Source of the DNA: a virus
Strand: one strand, 5' to 3'
Virus record (IMG/VR): IMGVR_UViG_3300028559_001021
Coordinates: 2,746 to 66,745 of that record
DNA length: 64,000 bases
The translations under genes and the position numbers were made by a program. Below are positions 384 to 32,017 of the stretch, piece by piece. The notes under the pieces were generated by a model. The model was not told the DNA's origin, searched no databases, and saw only the letters and a program-made list of their open reading frames with translations. Numbering within the stretch: the first letter of the stretch is position 1; each line of letters opens with the position of its first letter.

Positions 384-3005
384 ATGATGATACTTGAAAA
401 CAAAATCAATTTATTAACAGAAAAAATCAATGCTGGTGAGTTTCTATTATTGGAAATGAAAAAGATTGGGATTGAGAAATTACCTTATTCGAAATCCTCA
501 CTTAAAAGATTTATTGATGGTAAAACTATGGATGTTCATTATAACGGACATTATAAAACATATGTAAAGAAACTAAACGACGTGTTATCTAAAAAAAATT
601 ACGGTGATTTAGAATTAGAAGATATTATTAAATCAATTAGTAAATTCCCGAAAACTGTCAGAAACAATGCGGGTGGGGCATTTAACCATGTTTTATTTTG
701 GAAAATGTTATCACCCCAAAAAAAAGAAATCCCATCAGAATTAAAATCAAGAATTATAAAAGATTTTGGATCAATAAATGAATTTAAAAATAAATTCAAC
801 GAAGAATCTAAAGATAGATTCGGATCTGGATGGTGTTGGTTGGTTCTAACAAAAAATGGTAGGTTAAAAATTATGTCAACACCAAATCAAGACAATCCAT
901 TAATGAATGTTATTGAGGGAGGTGGGTTTCCAATATTAGGTTTGGACTTATGGGAACATGCGTATTATCTAAAGTATCAAAACAAAAGAGATGAATATAT
1001 TAAAAACTTTTGGCATGTAGTTAATTGGGACTTTGTAAATGACTTGTATTTGAAAAAACAAAAATCTAAATTAATGGAATCAATTAGGATTATTAAAGAA
1101 GAAACTAGTAATGACGGATTACCTGAAAGTGAATACATCGTTAATGGAAGAATTAATCCCAAATTAACCCAAGAATTATTAAAAAAAGTATATCCAGAAT
1201 GTAGTCCTAAAATAATAAAAGATTATGACTTAAATAAACGTATACCAAATGCCTGTTATGGTAAAATAGAATCAGATACTTGCAAAACTGGTTATGGTGT
1301 TATTGGTGGTAAATATGCGATGAGTCAAAGGGGTGGTTTAGGTGAATGGTCAGTTTTGAATTGGTTTGACGGTCATAAAGATATTAGTAAAAAGATTTTA
1401 GAGTTTTATGGATTTCTAAATAGTGAAAAAAGTTCGTTTAAGTCTTGGATGAATAAAATGAAAAATGCTTTATTTGCTGAAGACAGAAAATTAGTCCAAC
1501 AATTATTACCATTAATTTCTAATCCTGAAACAAAAAAAGGATCATTAGACCTTGGTATTACTAGAGAAAATACTGCGGTAGATATTTTAAATTCCTTATA
1601 TAGTCAATCAAAAATAACAAGATTTTGTGATGGAGACCTTCGTGATAAATTTAAAGGTCAAGATATGATATGGAATGAAGACAATGTTGATAAGTTCGTT
1701 CAGGTTAAACCAACACATGATTTATTTAAAGGTGATGAGAATGGACAACCAATATATGTATTCAAAAGTAAAAACAAATATGAAGTTAAGAATATTCAAA
1801 TATTTGTTTTCATATATAATCGTAACAATTATATATTATTCAATAATAACGCAACCCCAACCCCAATTGAAAACGATTCTAATTTCAAATATTCATATAC
1901 ATTCAAAGAAGATGAGATAATGAAAAAAGATGGCAATGTTTTCTTAAAAAAATTAACTGAATCAACACGTAAAAACAGACTATTACTTGAGGGTAGTAAT
2001 TTCCCATTCTCCAAAAAAAGAATGAGGGATTTAATGTTTAATCAATACCCAAGTTGTGATGATGATAAGTCAGGTAATGGTTGTATTGGTAAAATTAATG
2101 AACCAAATTGCGAAACAAACATTGGGATTATTGGAGGTTATTACACAGAAGAAGAATATGGTGGAAGTGGTAATTGGTCATTAATTAATCGTTGGGATGC
2201 CAATACAAATATTCATAGTGCAATTATTAACATATATAAAAGAGAAAAAAAGAAAACAAAACGTAATTTAAATCTTGAGGATTGGATTTTAGAAAACGTA
2301 TATGACTTGTTCTCAAATGATGGAATTTACACAGAAGAACTAGTTGATATTGCTAAAGATTATTTTGATAAAGGTATTAAAAATGAATCTTTTGCCAAAA
2401 ATATTATTGAGAAAATATATGATTTAGATAAGAAAAAAGAAAATATTGACTATAAGTTATATAACTATTGTGGTGGAGCAATCAATGATACACTTTATGG
2501 TCAAGATATTGTTTTAGAACTAGAAAACAATGAACCAATTTACTTCCAAGTAAAACCATTCAAGCCAGACGATATTGGTTATTTTGAAGACGATGATAGA
2601 GGGTTTTATTATGGGGTTAAATCATATAACCAACATAATAAATATAAAATGGATTATGTTGATATTATAATATATGTTAATACATCAACAGATGAATATG
2701 TTATGTTCAGAAATGATTATAATAAAATAATAACAACAAGTAGTACCAATTACGGTGGTCTTAAATTTATAATCAATTATTATGAAGAACCATTAAAAAC
2801 AAATATATTATTTGAATTAAAGAAAGGAACAACATTAAGTTCAGAAAAAAAATTATTACGAAGAGACAAAGAAAAATTAGTTAAGTATTACCAAGATAGA
2901 ATACAATTCTTTCAAGATAAACTAAAAGATTTGGGAATTTCAGAAGAATTAAGTGAAGGTATTAAACAATGTAAAATTCAATTGTTGAAATTATTAACAC
3001 AATAA
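384..3005 (+). CDS. Fe/Mn superoxide dismutase fused to two tandem PD-(D/E)xK-like domains
   Basis: LPYS, HYNGHY, GGAFNH, FGSGWCWL, NQD and DLWEHAYY motifs; the C-terminal ~640 aa has two homologous repeats with GQD...QVKP. ATG 384 preferred over TTG 357, which overlaps the upstream stop. Confidence 0.85.
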   Translation: MMILENKINLLTEKINAGEFLLLEMKKIGIEKLPYSKSSLKRFIDGKTMDVHYNGHYKTYVKKLNDVLSKKNYGDLELEDIIKSISKFPKTVRNNAGGAFNHVLFWKMLSPQKKEIPSELKSRIIKDFGSINEFKNKFNEESKDRFGSGWCWLVLTKNGRLKIMSTPNQDNPLMNVIEGGGFPILGLDLWEHAYYLKYQNKRDEYIKNFWHVVNWDFVNDLYLKKQKSKLMESIRIIKEETSNDGLPESEYIVNGRINPKLTQELLKKVYPECSPKIIKDYDLNKRIPNACYGKIESDTCKTGYGVIGGKYAMSQRGGLGEWSVLNWFDGHKDISKKILEFYGFLNSEKSSFKSWMNKMKNALFAEDRKLVQQLLPLISNPETKKGSLDLGITRENTAVDILNSLYSQSKITRFCDGDLRDKFKGQDMIWNEDNVDKFVQVKPTHDLFKGDENGQPIYVFKSKNKYEVKNIQIFVFIYNRNNYILFNNNATPTPIENDSNFKYSYTFKEDEIMKKDGNVFLKKLTESTRKNRLLLEGSNFPFSKKRMRDLMFNQYPSCDDDKSGNGCIGKINEPNCETNIGIIGGYYTEEEYGGSGNWSLINRWDANTNIHSAIINIYKREKKKTKRNLNLEDWILENVYDLFSNDGIYTEELVDIAKDYFDKGIKNESFAKNIIEKIYDLDKKKENIDYKLYNYCGGAINDTLYGQDIVLELENNEPIYFQVKPFKPDDIGYFEDDDRGFYYGVKSYNQHNKYKMDYVDIIIYVNTSTDEYVMFRNDYNKIITTSSTNYGGLKFIINYYEEPLKTNILFELKKGTTLSSEKKLLRRDKEKLVKYYQDRIQFFQDKLKDLGISEELSEGIKQCKIQLLKLLTQ

Positions 3006-26557: not shown

Positions 26558-26603
26558 CCCCACATCCCCTGAAGAAATTCAAGTTGTGGGGTTTCGTTTT
26601 TTT
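26558..26603 (+). terminator. Probable terminator
   Basis: CCCCACA...TGTGGGG followed by a T-rich run. Confidence 0.6.
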
Positions 26604-26665
26604 AATTATTTTACTAACCCTTTAGACAATACTGATGTTGGGTATATTTATAATAAAAACTAAAT

Positions 26666-27571
26666 ATGAAAGAAGAAATAATTAAATTGATTATTACCGA
26701 ATATAAAAAAGGTTTGGGTTCTACAACCATATCAAAAAAATACAATATCCCAAAACAAAAAATATTAAAGGTAATTAAAGATAAAAATTTAACAAGAATT
26801 AAAGATAGGTGTAAAAAATTGAATATAATACAAGAGGGCGAGTATTTTAAAACTGAAAAGATTTGTCCAATATGTAATACAAAAACATTTATAAAAACTA
26901 AAGAAAGTACCACAACTTGTAGAAATTATTATAATGCGATAAAAAGAGGTGGAAATTGTAAAAAATGTAGTTTGGAATTACAAAAAGGTGAGGGTAATCC
27001 ATTTTTCGGAAAAAAACATTCGGATAAAACAAAATCAACAATATCAAAAAATAGAAAAGGAAAAGCTATTGGTGAAAACAATTCTATGTCAAAGTATGAA
27101 CATAGAAAAAAATTATCCGATAGTTTAAAAAAAAGTTGGGAGAGTGGTAAGTTAGAGGAAACAAGGAAGAAGATGAGTGAAGTATTAAAAAGCACGAGAA
27201 GAAGTGGTAAAATTAAATCGGTGAACAAATCTAAAAAAGAAACTGAAATCTGTAATGATATAAAAAAAATGGGTTATAAAGTTCAGTCTTCTTACAAAGT
27301 TGACACAAAAATATGTGATGTATTCATACCAAAACTAAATTTGATTATTGAATATTTTGGAGATTATTGGCATTGTAATCCTAACAAATATTCAGCCGAA
27401 TATATTAATAAAAAAAAGAATCTTACAGCAAAAGAAATTTGGGAATATGATACCTCAAAACTTGAATTAATCAAAAGTTATGGTTATAATTTGGAAGTAA
27501 TTTGGGAGAGTGAACTCAAATTAAATAATGATAAATTATTAAACATAATTAAAAAATATGATACAAAATGA
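26666..27571 (+). mobile_element. Free-standing homing endonuclease (NUMOD3 repeats plus Vsr/DUF559-like nuclease)
   Basis: HTH-like N-terminus, CxxC pairs, GEGNPFFGKKHS (NUMOD3), D....LIIEYFGDYWH...IWE. Confidence 0.85.
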
Positions 27572-28814
27572 TAATCAACCTCGGTTGGATCACAGAGAGA
27601 GAATAAGAGTACTTGTTCTGCCCTCAGATACAACCGGGGTTGGCTGAGGTAAATTCCGAAGCGTAGACCCCCATGTAATGTTACAAAATATGTATCCAGA
27701 TGATTTTCATGTGGACATAGATTACCAACCAAGGATTAATGATGTTAATTATTGGAAACAATATCAGATTGTTCATGTACATAGAAACATTGGACAATCA
27801 TATGAACAAACCCCAACCATAATCAATTTCTTAAAATCAATAGGCATTATTGTTGTTGTTGATTTGGATGACTATTGGTTACCAGGAAAGGAACACCCAA
27901 TACACACCTTGATTGTTCAAGACAAAATCCACGAAAAGATTATGGCGAACTTGAAGGTAGCCAGTTATGTTATTACAACAACAAACATCTTTGCCGATGA
28001 GATTAGAAAATTAAATAGGAATGTTGTTATATTACCCAATGCCATCAATCCTGACGAATTACAATTCAAACAACCAAACGAAGAATCGAATAGAGTTAGA
28101 GTTGGATGGTTGGGTGGATCGTCACACTTTCACGACTTAAAATTACTACAAGGTTTTGTTGGAAAGAATAGTGGATTACAAGACAAACTCCAATATGTTT
28201 TATGTGGATTTGATATTAGAGGAACTGTAACTGAAATCAATCAACAAACTGGGGAAAGGAAACAAAGAAACATTAAACCTGAAGAAACTGTATGGTCTCG
28301 TTATGAGGAAATCTTTACTAACAATTATAGTATTATCCCCCCTGACTACCATAAGTTCTTAATGACCTTTAAAGAAGAAGAATATCCTAACGAAAAAGAT
28401 TTTGGTTATAGAAGGGTGTGGACAAAACATATTAACACATACGCTACAAATTATTCAAAGTTTGATATATCTTTGGCTCCAATCAAAAACCACATCTTTA
28501 ATAGGGTTAAATCACAATTAAAAGTTATTGAAGCTGGATTTTATAAAAAAGCAATAATAGCATCTGAAGTTGGTCCCTATACAATTGACTTGAAACATTC
28601 AATGGAATTTGGTAAGTTTGTTGATGGAAATGCCTTGTTGGTTAAAGAAGAAAGAAATCATAGTGATTGGGCTAAACACATTAAAACTTTAGCATACAAT
28701 CCAAATATGGTTATTGATTTGGGTGAAAGATTATATGAGTCAGTTAAGGACAAATATGATTTGAGAAACGTAACTAGAGATAGGGCATCATGGTATAAAT
28801 CACTAATAAAATAA
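27558..28814 (+). CDS. GT4-like (GT-B) glycosyltransferase with an in-frame TGA at 27645-27647
   Basis: ATG 27558 is in frame with the 27678 ORF: RIRVLVLPSDTTGVG*GKFRSVDPH...; downstream DLDDYW, VGWLGGSSH, DISLAP..FNRVKSQLKVIEAG. Confidence 0.8.
27575..27650 (+). promoter_or_regulatory. Putative translational bypass (stop-hop) element
   Basis: Gly codons flank the stop (GGC TGA GGT); long hairpin 27575-27643 and alternative hairpin CCTCAG(27622-27)/CTGAGG(27644-49). Confidence 0.55.
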
Positions 28815-29534: not shown

Positions 29535-30133
29535 GTTTAGACAATTTAGAAAACATTAGCGAATACGCCATTAAGATACAACAATTACTTGAAGCCAATG
29601 AAAATGGGGAAGAAATTGATTATAACACATTATTTGATGAGTTTGGATTGAATCTTGAAGAACTTGAACATGATATGATGAATTATTCGCCAAAATTGGA
29701 TTTGGGTTATGTTAAATTAAACGATGATGCGGTTGAACCAAAATATAATTATGATGGTGATTCTGGATTTGATTTATATTCAACTGAGGATGTTACAATA
29801 CCCCCATTTGGTAGAGTATTAATTCCAACTGGTTTATCTTTTGACATTAAAGATGGATATGAAATTCAAGTTAGGTCAAAGAGTGGATTGGCTCTAAACC
29901 AAGGATTGATGGTATTAAATTCTCCCGGAACAGTAGACAATTCTTTTGCAGGAGAGGTTAAGGTAATACTATTCAATGTTAATAACCACCAAGTAAAAAT
30001 TAATAAGGGTATGAAGATTGCTCAAGCCGTATTAACATCTGTTGTTAATGGAAAGTGGGTTCAATTGAATAAGCTTAATGGAATAAACGATAAGGATAGA
30101 GGAGATAAAGGATTTGGTTCAACTGGAGTATGA
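29531..30133 (+). CDS. dut: Trimeric dUTPase
   Basis: SGFDL, RSKSGLA, GTVD..F.GE, IAQ and RGDKGFGSTG motifs. Confidence 0.95.
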   Translation: MSLDNLENISEYAIKIQQLLEANENGEEIDYNTLFDEFGLNLEELEHDMMNYSPKLDLGYVKLNDDAVEPKYNYDGDSGFDLYSTEDVTIPPFGRVLIPTGLSFDIKDGYEIQVRSKSGLALNQGLMVLNSPGTVDNSFAGEVKVILFNVNNHQVKINKGMKIAQAVLTSVVNGKWVQLNKLNGINDKDRGDKGFGSTGV

Positions 30134-30312
30134 TTACAATAATATATTCAACACATAAAGACAAAGACTATAACGAAAAATTTAAGACCCATCTGATTAA
30201 TTCGGTGGGTCTTAATGACGTTCAGATATTAGAATATCAAAACAACAACCAATACTCATTAGCTCAAGTTTATAATAGTGGAATTTTTAAAATGTATTAT
30301 TTATTAATCTAA
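30130..30312 (+). pseudogene. Orphaned original N-terminus of the downstream glycosyltransferase
   Basis: MITIIYSTH...NSVGL..V.I.E..NN...SL...YN parallels the start of the 30518 ORF. Confidence 0.75.
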
Positions 30313-30424
30313 TTTTATTATAAATTGAATATAATTTTTTATTTAATATTCTTGAACATTCTTTAGCACCAATTATTTTGTAATTTTCGATTAAAAATTT
30401 AACTTCACTTTCTATCCATCTCAT
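30287..30424 (-). pseudogene. Remnant of a homing endonuclease N-terminal HTH
   Basis: MRWIESEVKFLIENYKIIGAKECSRILNKKLYSIYNKI (W...E...L..NY pattern); TATTTAT motif upstream. Confidence 0.55.
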
Positions 30425-30517
30425 TTTGTTAATTGTTTACATTAATAAATATAAATAAAACAATAAAAACTAATTACAATTAAGAATTATTGTTTTATTT
30501 TTAAAAAAAATATTGAT

Positions 30518-32017
30518 ATGATAACAATAGGATATTCTAGTCGAAATCATAATCAAAAACATTATGAACACTTGTCAAATAGTGTAGGTCTTAAAAATGT
30601 TGAGATTATTGAAATAATAAATAACGGTAATCTATCATTATCAGAATGCTATAATGAAATATTAAAAAAATCAAAATTTAATATCAATGTTTATGTCCAT
30701 GATGATATTAAACTTGAGAAAAATTGGGGTGTAAAACTATTGGAGGATTTCAATAATAATTCCGACTTTGGTATTATCGGTAAAGCTGGTTCTTGTTATT
30801 TTCCAAAGTCTGGAATATATTGGGAACGAATGCAACAAACAATGGTTGGTCAAGTTTGGCATCACCCTATTGGACATAAAAAATGGATTAACAATTATTG
30901 CAGTAAATTACCATTTATAATACCCGTTGTAACAATTGATGGTTTATTTATATCATTTGATAAGACAAAAATTAAACATCAGTTTGATGAAACAATTGGT
31001 AAATTCCATTTTTACGATCACGGATTTTCTGTTCCAAATTATTTGGATGGGGTTAAAATTGGTGTGACATCTTCCTTTGAAATTACTCATGAATCTATTG
31101 GACAACCAAATCAAGAATTTTTTGAAAGCAAAGATAAGTTTTTGGAAAAATATGGGGATAAATTTCCATTGGATTTAAGACCAAAAGATGTTTATGTTCC
31201 AAACTTAAAAATAAAAGAAAATAAAAATAAGGTTGCGGTAATCATTTCGACCAAAAGTAAATTGGATTTATTATTCCAATGTATTGAATCTTTTTATGAA
31301 CATTGTAATCCAAAACAATATGATATATTTATTGCCGACACCGGTTCAGATGAAGAAGAATTAAAATCAATTAAAGAATTGGTAAATAAGGTTGATAATA
31401 TCAAACTAATAAAATATCAATATTATAACTTTGCTAAGATTAACAATCATATTGTTAAAAATTACATTGGTAGAGAATATACATATGTGTTATTCTGTAA
31501 CAACGATATTAAACTAATGAGTGATGTAATTGGTGGAATGTTAAATGTATTTAAAGAAAATTCAAAAGTTGGTACTGTAGGATGTAGACTTCATTATGAA
31601 GATAATACAATCCAACATAATGGAGCTATGATTGGTATTAGTGACAAATATCAAGTAATACTTAAACACTTAGATGAAAAAATATATTACCCATCAATTA
31701 TGGGATTAAACAAAGTTGCAATTAATACTGCTGGTTTAATGATGATGACAAGATTTTTATTTGATAAAATTGGTGGGTTTAATGAACAATATTCAACTTC
31801 TTTTGAAGACGTTGAATTAAACATTAAATGTATATTACTAGGTTTTGATAATTTTTGTGATAGCAATCTAGTTGCTTATCATTATGAAAGTCAAACAAGA
31901 AAAACAAATGTTAATGATAAGGATGGACAATTTTATGATTATAAAAATGTTCTTTTACCATTCATAAATAAACATATTCAAACAATTATAAACAGAACAA
32001 AAATATATAAAGTATGA
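30518..32017 (+). CDS. Two-domain GT2-type glycosyltransferase
   Basis: VHDD, IDGLF, FHFYD; second domain IADTGS, FCNND, GGFNE..EDVE. Confidence 0.9.
   Translation: MITIGYSSRNHNQKHYEHLSNSVGLKNVEIIEIINNGNLSLSECYNEILKKSKFNINVYVHDDIKLEKNWGVKLLEDFNNNSDFGIIGKAGSCYFPKSGIYWERMQQTMVGQVWHHPIGHKKWINNYCSKLPFIIPVVTIDGLFISFDKTKIKHQFDETIGKFHFYDHGFSVPNYLDGVKIGVTSSFEITHESIGQPNQEFFESKDKFLEKYGDKFPLDLRPKDVYVPNLKIKENKNKVAVIISTKSKLDLLFQCIESFYEHCNPKQYDIFIADTGSDEEELKSIKELVNKVDNIKLIKYQYYNFAKINNHIVKNYIGREYTYVLFCNNDIKLMSDVIGGMLNVFKENSKVGTVGCRLHYEDNTIQHNGAMIGISDKYQVILKHLDEKIYYPSIMGLNKVAINTAGLMMMTRFLFDKIGGFNEQYSTSFEDVELNIKCILLGFDNFCDSNLVAYHYESQTRKTNVNDKDGQFYDYKNVLLPFINKHIQTIINRTKIYKV

What the first reader, a model, noticed from the sequence alone, without database searches (positions are those of the whole stretch)
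27558..27680. Apparent programmed ribosomal stop-hop (GGC-TGA-GGT) coupled to a homing endonuclease, a T4 mobA/gene 60 analogue
Seen: the glycosyltransferase frame starts at ATG 27558, overlapping the endonuclease stop, and encodes a plausible GT-B first strand, RIRVLVLPSDTTGVG*GKFRSVDPH. A single TGA (27645-47) is flanked by two Gly codons read by the same tRNA. The stretch is GC-rich for this genome and folds two competing ways: a ~70-nt hairpin (CAACCUCGGUUG 27576-87 with CAACCGGGGUUG 27631-42; inner AGAAUAAG/CUUGUUCU) ending at the take-off codon, or a hairpin burying the stop (CCUCAG 27622-27 with CUGAGG 27644-49). Established: T4 gene 60 bypassing uses matched Gly codons, a stop and stem-loops, and that insertion lies next to the homing endonuclease MobA and protects against it. 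Inference: take-off at GGC and landing at GGT skips 6 nt to give DTTGVGKFR, fitting the DxxG[VC]GxxR spacing I recall for related enzymes; the 6-nt insert would destroy the endonuclease target while keeping the gene functional.
Basis: partly seen in the sequence, partly recalled or inferred. Interest (0 to 1): 0.92.

Follow-up and report, generated by a model that had tools for sequence, protein, structure and literature searches.

The report
Ribosome stop-hop cassette in phage glycosyltransferase
A selfish endonuclease cassette has rebuilt the start of a lake phage's sugar-transferase gene and left a stop codon between two glycine codons behind a strong RNA hairpin; many wild variants indicate that ribosomes hop over it, which would be a natural, very short counterpart of the phage T4 gene 60 bypass, still unconfirmed at the bench.

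Summary
ATG 27558 opens a frame that reads ...RIRVLVLPSDTTGVG, then TGA (27645-47), then GKFRSVDPH... into the 378-codon glycosyltransferase ORF. Intact homologs read GVGKFR, so the window carries 6 extra bases (stop plus a second Gly codon).

The break is conserved. With any codon allowed between the two Gly codons, 22 of 22 IMG/VR hits and 68 of 68 metagenome hits have a stop. Pooled over 98 places that is TGA 63, TAA 35, sense 0. Both flanks are under purifying selection in one frame (pN/pS 0.21 and 0.13).

All 64 distinct versions have an added N-terminal extension that pairs with a G-tract just 5' of the take-off codon. Compensatory changes include CCCC/GGGG to CUCC/GGAG.

All 59 insert alleles with enough upstream DNA have a NUMOD3/Vsr-like homing endonuclease (47) or its remnant (12).

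Homologous cassettes with gaps of 5 and 11 bases (out of frame, body still open) rule out readthrough there.

Best reading: a programmed +6 stop-hop carried by a mobile endonuclease cassette (about 0.78). Nothing was tested at the bench.

This scan has noted the same cassette before on other DNA: 78 notes in at least 38 genomes.

The parts
26666..27571 (+). Free-standing homing endonuclease gene (301 aa; NUMOD3 motif plus Vsr/PD-(D/E)xK-like C-terminal half)
   Evidence: Pfam gives NUMOD3 at E 4e-6 (above its cut-off) and REase_MTES_1575 at E 1.7e-4 (below its cut-off). PHROGs gives phrog_3339 'homing endonuclease' at 3.3e-11. Homologs or remnants lie directly upstream of 59 of 59 insert alleles.
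27558..27599 (+). N-terminal extension of the glycosyltransferase (about 12-14 codons, absent from intact alleles); it supplies the 5' arm of the hairpin
   Evidence: Intact alleles start MSKI(K/R)VLV. All 64 distinct insert versions carry an extension, in 5 sequence lineages.
27575..27643 (+). 5' hairpin (outer helix 27575-87 with 27631-43, inner helix around 27598-27619) ending on the first bases of the take-off codon
   Evidence: -33.9 kcal/mol, z = -4.65. The equivalent helix is the MFE in 64 of 64 distinct versions, against 126 of 1280 after shuffling the extension. Covariation is shown.
27636..27639 (+). G-tract (GGGG, from codons GGG GUU), shared by the 5' helix and the alternative 3' helix
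   Evidence: The Gly codon here is GGG in 17 of 17 insert versions against 3 of 44 intact ones. It becomes GGAG only where the 5' arm is CUCC.
27642..27644 (+). Take-off codon GGC (Gly)
   Evidence: GGY in 64 of 64 distinct versions.
27645..27647 (+). In-frame stop TGA (the A-site codon at take-off)
   Evidence: Stop in 98 of 98 places: TGA 63, TAA 35.
27648..27650 (+). Landing codon GGT (Gly); decoding would resume at AAA 27651
   Evidence: GGT or GGC in 56 and GGA in 8 of 64 distinct versions. Removing 6 nt gives the GVGKFR of intact homologs.
27666..27672 (+). Second C-tract (GACCCCC, Asp-Pro codons), which can pair with the G-tract to enclose the take-off, stop and landing codons
   Evidence: RNAalifold proposes this helix. 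In lineage 69 the 13-bp helix is paired in 98.1% of cells. Pro is CCC in 16 of 17 insert versions against 9 of 44 intact ones. Conservation is relaxed in the GGAG lineage (5 of 10 against 50 of 54).
27648..28814 (+). Body of the GT-B (GT4-like) glycosyltransferase downstream of the stop
   Evidence: There are more than 7500 homologs. The body stays open in 50 of 50 insert alleles with enough sequence. The AF2 model of an intact homolog has pLDDT 86, and its best Foldseek matches are GlgM, PglA, MshA and BshA.
26666..27677 (+). Approximate extent of the mobile cassette: endonuclease, extension, and a re-coded copy of the first ~26 glycosyltransferase codons including the 6-nt insert
   Evidence: L014 (insert) and L002 (intact) differ densely only from GT codon 3 to about 30 nt past the stop. 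Beyond that they match at 27-30 of every 30 nt for the next ~500 nt. The pattern is the same in L039/L038 and L121/L056. The window coordinates are transferred from L014 by offset, so this extent is an inference.

Best explanation
The window carries a mobile cassette made of three parts. The first is a free-standing NUMOD3/Vsr-like homing endonuclease gene. The second is a short N-terminal extension of the neighbouring GT-B glycosyltransferase. The third is a re-coded copy of that gene's first ~26 codons, with 6 extra bases (a stop plus a second Gly codon) inside the conserved GVG|KFR loop.

The full-length enzyme is most likely made by a programmed +6 'stop-hop'. With GGC (27642-44) in the P site and UGA in the A site, peptidyl-tRNA-Gly lets go of GGC. 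The mRNA slips forward 6 nt, the tRNA re-pairs with GGU (27648-50), and decoding resumes at AAA. Nine nucleotides then specify one glycine, and the product equals that of intact alleles.

The hop is probably helped by the slow-to-decode stop and by the conserved hairpin. The 3' arm of that hairpin is the 12 nt just before, and touching, the take-off codon, so it must be melted at take-off. Its refolding behind the ribosome would pull the mRNA forward. An alternative helix between the same G-tract and a downstream C-tract puts the take-off and stop codons on the 5' side of a stem.

Shown here: the conservation of the break, selection on both flanks, covariation of the hairpin, linkage to the endonuclease, patchy distribution, and out-of-frame relatives. 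Inferred: the hop itself, the role of the hairpin, and protection of the cassette-bearing DNA from its own endonuclease.
For: (a) Intact homologs lack exactly these 6 nt.

(b) With any codon allowed in the middle, 22 of 22 IMG/VR hits and 68 of 68 metagenome hits have a stop. Pooled over 98 places: TGA 63, TAA 35, sense 0.

(c) Both flanks are translated in the same frame. pN/pS is 0.21 for the 14 codons before the stop and 0.13 for the 10 codons after it (pS about 0.6), against 1.4-6.8 in the other frames. Ser switches between AGY and UCN on both sides.

(d) 50 of 50 insert alleles with enough sequence keep an open body of 369-394 codons.

(e) The take-off codon is GGY in 64 of 64 distinct versions, and the landing codon is GGY in 56 of 64.

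(f) Homologous cassettes, with the same extension and hairpin, have other gap lengths. Three contigs have an 11-nt gap (L208, L211, L220) with the body open for 386 codons in the shifted frame. One has a 5-nt gap (L216). Readthrough cannot serve these.

(g) Hairpin. The G-tract pairs with the extension in the MFE of 64 of 64 versions, against 126 of 1280 after shuffling. Five lineages with different extensions all keep the helix. In lineage 69 the pair next to C4/G4 is AU 17, UG 9, CG 4, GC 3, paired in 33 of 33, and 0 of 500 shuffles reach the covariation score. The GGAG lineage has ACUCCGG/CCGGAGU. Cognate arms give -18.3 kcal/mol against -13.5 for arms swapped between lineages.

(h) No code change. 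In the window 60 ORFs cover 90% under table 11 and end in TAA 44, TGA 15, TAG 1. There is no suppressor among 49 tRNAs found in three relatives.

(i) Mobility. An endonuclease or its remnant lies upstream of 59 of 59 insert alleles, against 5 of 48 intact ones. The insert label needs 19 changes on the tree of 101 enzyme bodies, at least 12 of them forced by supported branches. The cassette-derived tract ends about 30 nt past the stop.

(j) Contigs from two RNA libraries keep the 6 nt.

(k) Literature. Synthetic stop-hops with 9 nt for one amino acid are established, and refolding of exiting mRNA is proposed as the forward driver in gene 60 (passages of PMC5009743; sections of bioRxiv 10.1101/2022.08.31.505936; passages of 10.1101/2024.12.09.627546).
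Against: No protein, reporter or ribosome-profiling data exist, so everything is comparative.

The landing codon is GGA in 8 of 64 distinct versions. That is not a standard wobble match for a tRNA reading GGY.

The only phage-encoded tRNA-Gly seen in relatives has anticodon UCC. The hopping tRNA would therefore be a host one, and the host is unknown.

Unstimulated stop-hops in synthetic constructs are called low-level (passage of 10.1101/2024.12.09.627546), so the yield might be small.

The hairpin could serve another purpose, such as control of initiation 17 nt upstream or mRNA stability. In 25 of 64 versions the full-context MFE prefers the 3' helix.

A paralogous endonuclease (38-47% identical) sits at the same site beside intact alleles, so the insert is not needed for an endonuclease to live there.

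The insert sample was enriched by my own patterns, which fixed GGN GTN GGN ... GGN AAR TTY.

Contigs in RNA libraries do not prove transcription.

It does not say which part.
Confidence: 0.78

Rival explanations
1. Stop-codon readthrough: a near-cognate or suppressor tRNA decodes the stop, giving a protein two residues longer (GVG-X-G-KFR) that still works.
For: In the window the stop is in frame and is UGA, the leakiest stop (this is recalled knowledge, not from a call). The review PMC5009743 notes that at the product level a stop-hop differs from readthrough only by two amino acids (passage).
Against: The stop is TAA at 35 of 98 places. No suppressor was found among 49 tRNAs in three relatives. 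Homologous cassettes with 5-nt and 11-nt gaps are out of frame yet keep an open body. The extra Gly codon is kept in all 64 versions, and readthrough has no need for it. The junction lies at the N-cap of the first helix, in a loop whose length is invariant in intact alleles.
Confidence: 0.07
2. The cassette has truncated or inactivated the enzyme. Either a 378-aa protein starts at ATG 27678, or a 29-aa peptide and a separate C-terminal piece are made, or the gene is dead and merely young.
For: Gene callers in public data report 378-aa and 374-aa products for many relatives. ATG 27678 exists in the window.
Against: That Met is not conserved: K, H, F or C replace it in many insert alleles. The 10 codons between the stop and the Met have pN/pS 0.13, and the 14 codons before the stop 0.21. 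No start codon follows the stop. 50 of 50 bodies stay open across sequences with pS about 0.6. In the AF2 model of an intact homolog, a start at that Met would remove strand 1, the Gly loop and most of helix 1.
Confidence: 0.1
3. The break is removed at the RNA or DNA level (editing, a tiny intron, transcriptional slippage), or it is a sequencing artefact.
For: None found.
Against: Two contigs from RNA libraries of two studies keep the 6 nt, with no indel reported. There is no homopolymer run for slippage. The same break occurs in 97 other loci from many samples.
Confidence: 0.02

Closest known systems
Phage T4 gene 60 50-nt translational bypass carried by the MobA homing-endonuclease element (Manning & Atkins, bioRxiv 10.1101/2022.08.31.505936; Introduction and Discussion read)
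   Same: The two systems share these features:
- A homing-endonuclease cassette that brings a non-coding insert into a conserved loop of an enzyme.
- A Gly take-off codon followed directly by a stop, and a matched Gly landing codon.
- An added N-terminal extension, and a cassette-derived re-coded stretch of the host gene (their 'homR').
- RNA helices 5' of, and around, the take-off codon.
- The insert persists after the endonuclease decays (here in 12 of 59).
- A patchy distribution.
   Different: The host gene differs (a GT-B glycosyltransferase, not the topoisomerase II large subunit), and the gene is not split in two. The gap is 6 nt here (5 and 11 in relatives), not 50. The endonuclease is NUMOD3/Vsr-like. 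No mini-SD is evident, and genes here lack SD sequences. The nascent chain is only 26-29 residues long at take-off. The 5' hairpin is strongly conserved with covariation, whereas the T4-family 5' stem-loop is reported as not conserved between clades. The cassettes share no sequence homology.
Synthetic 'stop-hops' in E. coli (matched codons flanking a stop; 9 nt specify one amino acid), as described in Atkins et al. 2016, PMC5009743 (passages read)
   Same: The codon geometry is the same: matched codon, stop, matched codon, with an in-frame +6 movement. A relative with a 5-nt gap corresponds to the +5 hop. I recall the +5 hop from the 1987 work cited there and did not read that paper.
   Different: The synthetic cases are artificial, unstimulated and low-level. 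This one is natural, conserved across 64 distinct versions, and accompanied by a dedicated hairpin. The review states of natural in-frame stop hopping that 'no occurences are known'.
Byp elements of Magnusiomyces capitatus mitochondria (27-55 nt), as summarised in the two papers above
   Same: [quoted passage not shown]
   Different: They are mitochondrial, have an unused sense codon in the A site, appear independent of context, and are not linked to an endonuclease.
prfB (RF2) +1 frameshift site
   Same: Both have a stop in the A site and a G-rich tract a few nucleotides 5' of the P-site codon. This comparison is recalled, not from a call.
   Different: Here the shift is +6 onto a non-overlapping codon. 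Genes of this phage show no SD sequences upstream of their starts, so a role for the anti-SD is doubtful.

Membership tests
T4 gene 60 / MobA bypass cassette (homologous family of Manning & Atkins) | Inserted in the topoisomerase II large-subunit gene, splitting it | tested here: not met
   The host gene is a GT-B glycosyltransferase and it is not split.
T4 gene 60 / MobA bypass cassette (homologous family of Manning & Atkins) | Coding gap of about 50 nt with a mini-SD 6 nt before the landing codon | tested here: not met
   The gap is 6 nt in the window and 5 or 11 nt in relatives. None of 31-60 nt was found with my pattern in IMG/VR.
T4 gene 60 / MobA bypass cassette (homologous family of Manning & Atkins) | Gly take-off codon, stop in the A site, matched landing codon | tested here: met
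   GGC-TGA-GGT in the window. Take-off is GGY in 64 of 64, a stop follows in 98 of 98, and landing is GGY in 56 of 64 and GGA in 8 of 64.
T4 gene 60 / MobA bypass cassette (homologous family of Manning & Atkins) | MobA-type endonuclease | tested here: inconclusive
   Pfam finds NUMOD3 plus a weak Vsr-like REase domain. The PHROGs hits are phrog_3339 'homing endonuclease' and a weaker 'HNH endonuclease' family. No direct comparison with MobA was made.
Programmed translational bypassing (mechanistic class) | Both ORF parts under purifying selection, with a single product implied | tested here: met
   pN/pS is 0.21 and 0.13 on the two sides. Bodies are open in 50 of 50.
Programmed translational bypassing (mechanistic class) | Frame-independent gap: homologs whose gaps are not multiples of three | tested here: met
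   Gap 11 in L208, L211 and L220, and gap 5 in L216, each with the body open in the shifted frame.
Programmed translational bypassing (mechanistic class) | Product lacking the gap-encoded residues shown by protein analysis | not testable with these tools
   No proteomic data are at hand.
Free-standing homing-endonuclease cassette | Patchy distribution against the host-gene tree, and a co-conversion tract in the neighbouring gene | tested here: met
   The insert label needs 19 changes on 101 bodies, at least 12 of them forced. The divergent tract ends about 30 nt past the stop in three close insert/intact pairs.
Free-standing homing-endonuclease cassette | Site-specific cleavage of cassette-free alleles, with immunity of cassette-bearing DNA | not testable with these tools
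   This needs a cleavage assay.
Stop-codon reassignment or programmed readthrough | One stop codon read as sense throughout, or a dedicated suppressor tRNA | tested here: not met
   TGA and TAA alternate at the site. Both end ordinary genes in the window: 15 TGA and 44 TAA of 60. 0 of 49 tRNAs in relatives is a suppressor. The contigs are 43-51% complete, so this search is not exhaustive.
GT-B fold, GT4-like glycosyltransferase | Two Rossmann-like domains, with closest folds among GT4 enzymes | tested here: met
   The AF2 model of intact homolog P0001 has pLDDT 86. Foldseek against the PDB gives GlgM 6tvp at E 4e-13, followed by PglA, MshA and BshA. Pfam Glyco_trans_1_4 is only below its cut-off.

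The most novel reading that the evidence does not exclude
This is a natural family of minimal translational-bypass cassettes, with gaps of 5, 6 and 11 nt, spread among large freshwater phages by a homing endonuclease. A single covarying hairpin that ends on the take-off codon, together with a stop in the A site, is enough to make ribosomes hop. No Shine-Dalgarno landing aid and no long nascent-peptide signal would be required. It would be the first utilised stop-hop in nature, and an origin of endonuclease-linked bypassing independent of T4 gene 60.
Probability: 0.6. Interest if true: 0.9.

Novelty: new variant of a known kind. Interest (0 to 1): 0.82.

Why it matters
Programmed bypassing in phages has rested on one homologous family, T4 gene 60 and its relatives. 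In-frame stop-hopping is known only from synthetic constructs, and the 2016 review says no natural case is known (PMC5009743, passage read). My searches of the held library for 'stop-hop', 'stop hopping' and 'stop hop', and for bypassing with glycosyltransferase, homing endonuclease or metagenomes, found no report of this cassette.

A second, unrelated cassette would matter in several ways:
- It is much simpler, and dozens of natural variants exist with different stops, Gly codons, gap lengths and stems.
- It gives a compact system for testing whether refolding of exiting mRNA drives forward slippage.
- It shows that homing endonucleases can repeatedly 'solve' insertion into conserved coding sequence by recoding.
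- It warns annotators that the 374/378-aa calls for this enzyme are truncations.

Tried and rejected
Nucleotide search of the phage collection found nothing. Protein searches there found only distant relatives, under 34% identity for the enzyme and under 44% for the endonuclease, so no cultured close relative is at hand.

The PDB sequence search with P0001 found nothing.

RNAalifold on the mixed alignment A1 missed the 5' helix, because its register differs by one base among lineages and MAFFT split the C-tract. I therefore analysed the lineages separately.

An SD-like role for the GGGG tract (as in prfB) was considered and set aside. Gene starts here are preceded by A-rich sequence without SD. 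This is an impression from a few starts, not a count.

Selenocysteine or Trp at UGA, and a Gly reassignment of UGA, were set aside because TAA replaces TGA at 35 of 98 places.

A group I intron with an upstream exon was rejected. The 130 nt upstream of the endonuclease hold a terminator-like hairpin and no enzyme-like coding sequence, and all N-terminal residues lie downstream of the endonuclease.

No gaps of 31-60 nt turned up with my pattern in IMG/VR. This does not contradict the earlier notes of gaps up to 45 nt, which I could not test further.

The small-share RNA runs were laid only as contigs. They show that the sequence, with the 6 nt, stands in RNA libraries. They do not show that it is transcribed, and they give no level of expression.

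An intact homolog was folded instead.

Supplementary files of papers were closed. Tables S1 and S2 of the 2022 preprint (its list of cassettes) might hold cases that I could not see.
Full report
**What is there.** The window is a densely coded, AT-rich piece of an uncultured phage: a 66.7-kb record held in lake-water metagenomes. Under table 11, 60 ORFs of at least 120 codons cover 90% of it, and they end in TAA 44, TGA 15 and TAG 1. An ORF at 26666-27571 encodes a 301-aa protein. It has a NUMOD3 motif, a weak Vsr/PD-(D/E)xK-like match, and a PHROGs 'homing endonuclease' hit.

Overlapping its last 14 nt, ATG 27558 opens a frame that reads MIQNDNQPRLDHRERIRVLVLPSDTTGVG. Next comes TGA (27645-47), and then GKFRSVDPHVMLQNM... 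runs in the same frame to 28814. That hairpin folds at -33.9 kcal/mol with z = -4.65, and 0 of 200 shuffles fold as well.

**The 6 extra bases.** A protein search returned more than 7500 homologs. All 10 full-length ones that I fetched (402-413 aa) read ...PSD(T/K)(T/S)GVGKFRSVDPH.... All 8 short ones (374-382 aa) begin at MLQNMYP or MYP, which is what a gene caller reports for an allele broken like the window's. Against intact alleles the window therefore carries exactly 6 extra bases: a stop and a second Gly codon.

An AlphaFold model of an intact homolog (24-sequence alignment, pLDDT 86) places the elements as follows:
- strand 1 at residues 4-9;
- a loop at residues 10-15;
- helix 1 from residue 16.

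The break therefore sits at the N-cap of the first helix of a GT-B enzyme. Its nearest solved folds are GT4-type transferases: GlgM, PglA, MshA and BshA.

**The break is conserved, and it is always a stop.**
- Of 80 IMG/VR loci fetched by homology, 8 have the same break.
- Two pattern scans left the middle codon free. They returned 22 of 22 (IMG/VR) and 68 of 68 (metagenome contigs) with a stop there.
- Pooled with the window that makes 98 places: TGA 63, TAA 35, no sense codon.
- These collapse to 64 distinct DNA versions.
- Take-off/stop/landing triplets among them are GGC-TGA-GGT 35, GGT-TAA-GGT 11, GGT-TAA-GGA 7, GGT-TGA-GGT 5, GGT-TAA-GGC 5 and GGT-TGA-GGA 1.

One caveat applies: my patterns fixed the Gly, Val, Lys and Phe codons around the site.

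**Both sides are translated in one frame.** Across the 64 versions synonymous divergence is high (pS about 0.6). The 14 codons before the stop have pN/pS 0.21, and the 10 codons just after it 0.13. The same bases read in the other frames give 1.4 to 6.8. Ser codons switch between AGY and UCN on both sides.

The Met at 27678 is not conserved. Many insert alleles have K, H, F or C there, so internal initiation does not explain the downstream selection. All 50 insert alleles with enough sequence keep an open body of 369-394 codons, the same range as 48 intact alleles.

**Out-of-frame relatives.** Earlier notes of this scan, made on other DNA, said that relatives carry gaps of other lengths. I tested this with a variable-gap scan of IMG/VR. 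The 20 new loci divide as follows:
- 11 are intact;
- 5 have the 6-nt gap;
- 3 have an 11-nt gap, TAACTAAAGGT (L208, L211, L220);
- 1 has a 5-nt gap, TAGGT (L216).

All of the broken ones keep the extension, the hairpin, a GGT take-off codon followed at once by a stop, and a GGT landing codon. In the 11-nt cases the enzyme body is open for 386 codons in the shifted frame. In the 5-nt case it is open for all 313 available codons. Readthrough cannot join these frames, whereas a hop from GGT to GGT can. By homology this favours hopping for the 6-nt form as well. No gap of 31-60 nt matched my pattern, and four loci of the GGAG lineage all have 6 nt.

**The hairpin.** Insert alleles always carry an N-terminal extension of about 9-13 codons that intact alleles lack. 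It occurs in five sequence lineages, with distances from the ATG to the G-tract of 69, 72, 75 (two kinds) and 78 nt. Each lineage, folded up to the take-off codon, gives a roughly 60-nt hairpin. Its outer helix joins a C-tract in the extension to the G-tract GGGG(U) formed by the Gly-Val codons just before the take-off codon.

The evidence that this helix is selected:
- The pairing is the MFE in 64 of 64 versions, against 126 of 1280 after shuffling the extension.
- The 3' arm ends on the first or second base of the take-off codon in 42 of 64 versions, and 1-2 nt before it in the other 22.
- In lineage 69 (33 sequences) the outer helix is paired in 99.6% of cells.
- In that lineage the pair next to C4/G4 is AU 17, UG 9, CG 4, GC 3. 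The inner helix has three pairs with double changes, and 0 of 500 shuffles reach the covariation score.
- In one lineage the G-tract is GGAG, and the 5' arm is then CUCC (ACUCCGG/CCGGAGU).
- Cognate arms bind at -18.3 kcal/mol on average, against -13.5 for arms swapped between lineages.
- The Gly codon of the G-tract is GGG in 17 of 17 insert versions but in only 3 of 44 intact ones.

The amino acids of the extension change (R, L, M, V) while the pairing is kept, so the RNA rather than the peptide seems to be what is selected.

A second, mutually exclusive helix joins the same G-tract to GACCCC (Asp-Pro codons, 27666-72). It encloses the take-off, stop and landing codons.
- In lineage 69 it has 13 bp, with 98.1% of cells paired.
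- It is the full-context MFE in 25 of 64 versions.
- The second C-tract is CCCC in 50 of 54 GGGG versions but in only 5 of 10 GGAG versions.

This helix puts the take-off codon on the 5' side of a stem, as described for the T4 take-off stem-loop (Introduction of 10.1101/2022.08.31.505936).

**A mobile cassette.** Among sequences with at least 1150 nt upstream and distinct upstream DNA:

| Allele type | Open full-length endonuclease homolog | Remnant only | None |
|---|---|---|---|
| Insert (59) | 47 | 12 | 0 |
| Intact (48) | 4 (under 50% identical, a paralogous clade) | 1 | 43 |

On a tree of 101 distinct enzyme bodies the insert label needs 19 changes. At least 12 are forced by supported branches, and 0 of 500 shuffles are as low. 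It is a FastTree tree and the sampling is biased toward insert alleles.

Near-identical bodies occur with and without the cassette (L014 with L002, L039 with L038, L121 with L056). In these pairs the dense differences run only from enzyme codon 3 to about 30 nt past the stop. The cassette therefore brings its own re-coded copy of the first ~26 codons, insert included. L001 and L002 keep a ~35-nt scrap of the endonuclease gene upstream of an intact allele.

**Other routes excluded.**
- There is no tRNA in the window.
- Two relatives carry 24 tRNAs each and a third carries one. None is a suppressor, and the only tRNA-Gly has anticodon UCC.
- Contigs from two RNA libraries span the site with the 6 nt in place.

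**Mechanism proposed.** With GGC in the P site and the stop in the A site, peptidyl-tRNA-Gly un-pairs. The mRNA moves 6 nt and the tRNA re-pairs at GGU.

At that moment the 3' arm of the hairpin lies inside the ribosome, while its partner and the inner helix are already outside. Refolding would draw the mRNA out of the exit side, in the forward direction. This is the 'driver' role argued for exiting mRNA in gene 60 (passages of 10.1101/2024.12.09.627546). All of this is inference. The efficiency, the tRNA and the host are unknown.

**Relation to what is known.** The logic matches the MobA/gene 60 element. Both have an endonuclease, an extension, a re-coded tract and a Gly-stop...Gly gap, and in both the gap persists after the endonuclease decays. 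The two are not homologous, however: the host gene, the endonuclease type and the gap length all differ, and here the 5' helix is conserved.

The codon geometry is that of the synthetic stop-hops. The 2016 review says that no natural occurrence of those is known. The 2022 preprint says that no similar bypassing had been reported in other phages. My library searches found no report of this cassette.

This scan itself has noted the same cassette repeatedly on other DNA. One of those notes records that part of the claim fell in a check elsewhere, without saying which part.

**Verdict.** I put a programmed stop-hop carried by a homing-endonuclease cassette at about 0.78. It is a new variant of a known kind, of high interest, and awaits a reporter or mass-spectrometry test.

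Noticed in passing
L003-L013, L038, L056/L057 (about 2180-3002 in each locus); remnant in L028: A paralogous endonuclease, 38-47% identical to the window's, sits at the same place directly upstream of intact enzyme alleles. These alleles have no extension and no insert. How these genomes avoid self-cleavage is open.
   Followed up: partly
L001 2945-2985 (and L002): A ~35-nt scrap matching the 3' part of the endonuclease gene lies between the upstream terminator and an intact enzyme gene. The body of that gene is almost identical to that of the insert-bearing L014, which suggests a recent clean loss (or gain) of the whole cassette.
   Followed up: partly
L211 and L220 (11-nt gap variants): No endonuclease homolog was found in the 1120 nt upstream of the extension, yet the extension, hairpin and gap are kept.
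   Followed up: no
L201 (G004:64800-83700) and L202 (G003:50700-66800): Relatives that carry the cassette encode arrays of 24 tRNAs. The only tRNA-Gly has anticodon UCC, which does not match the GGY take-off codon by standard wobble.
   Followed up: partly
window 30130-30520: A 60-aa ORF (30130-30312) begins MITIIYSTHKDKDY..., much like the start of the next GT2 gene (30518: MITIGYSSRNHNQKHY...). A 45-aa ORF lies on the opposite strand between them. This may be a duplicated gene start left by another insertion.
   Followed up: no
window 26568-26610: A terminator-like hairpin (CCCCACA...UGUGGGG followed by a T-run) ends the gene upstream of the endonuclease. It is conserved in L001 just before the cassette-free enzyme gene, so it marks the left edge of the insertion site.
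   Followed up: no
I did not check it. If it holds, it bears on which ribosome performs the hop.
   Followed up: no
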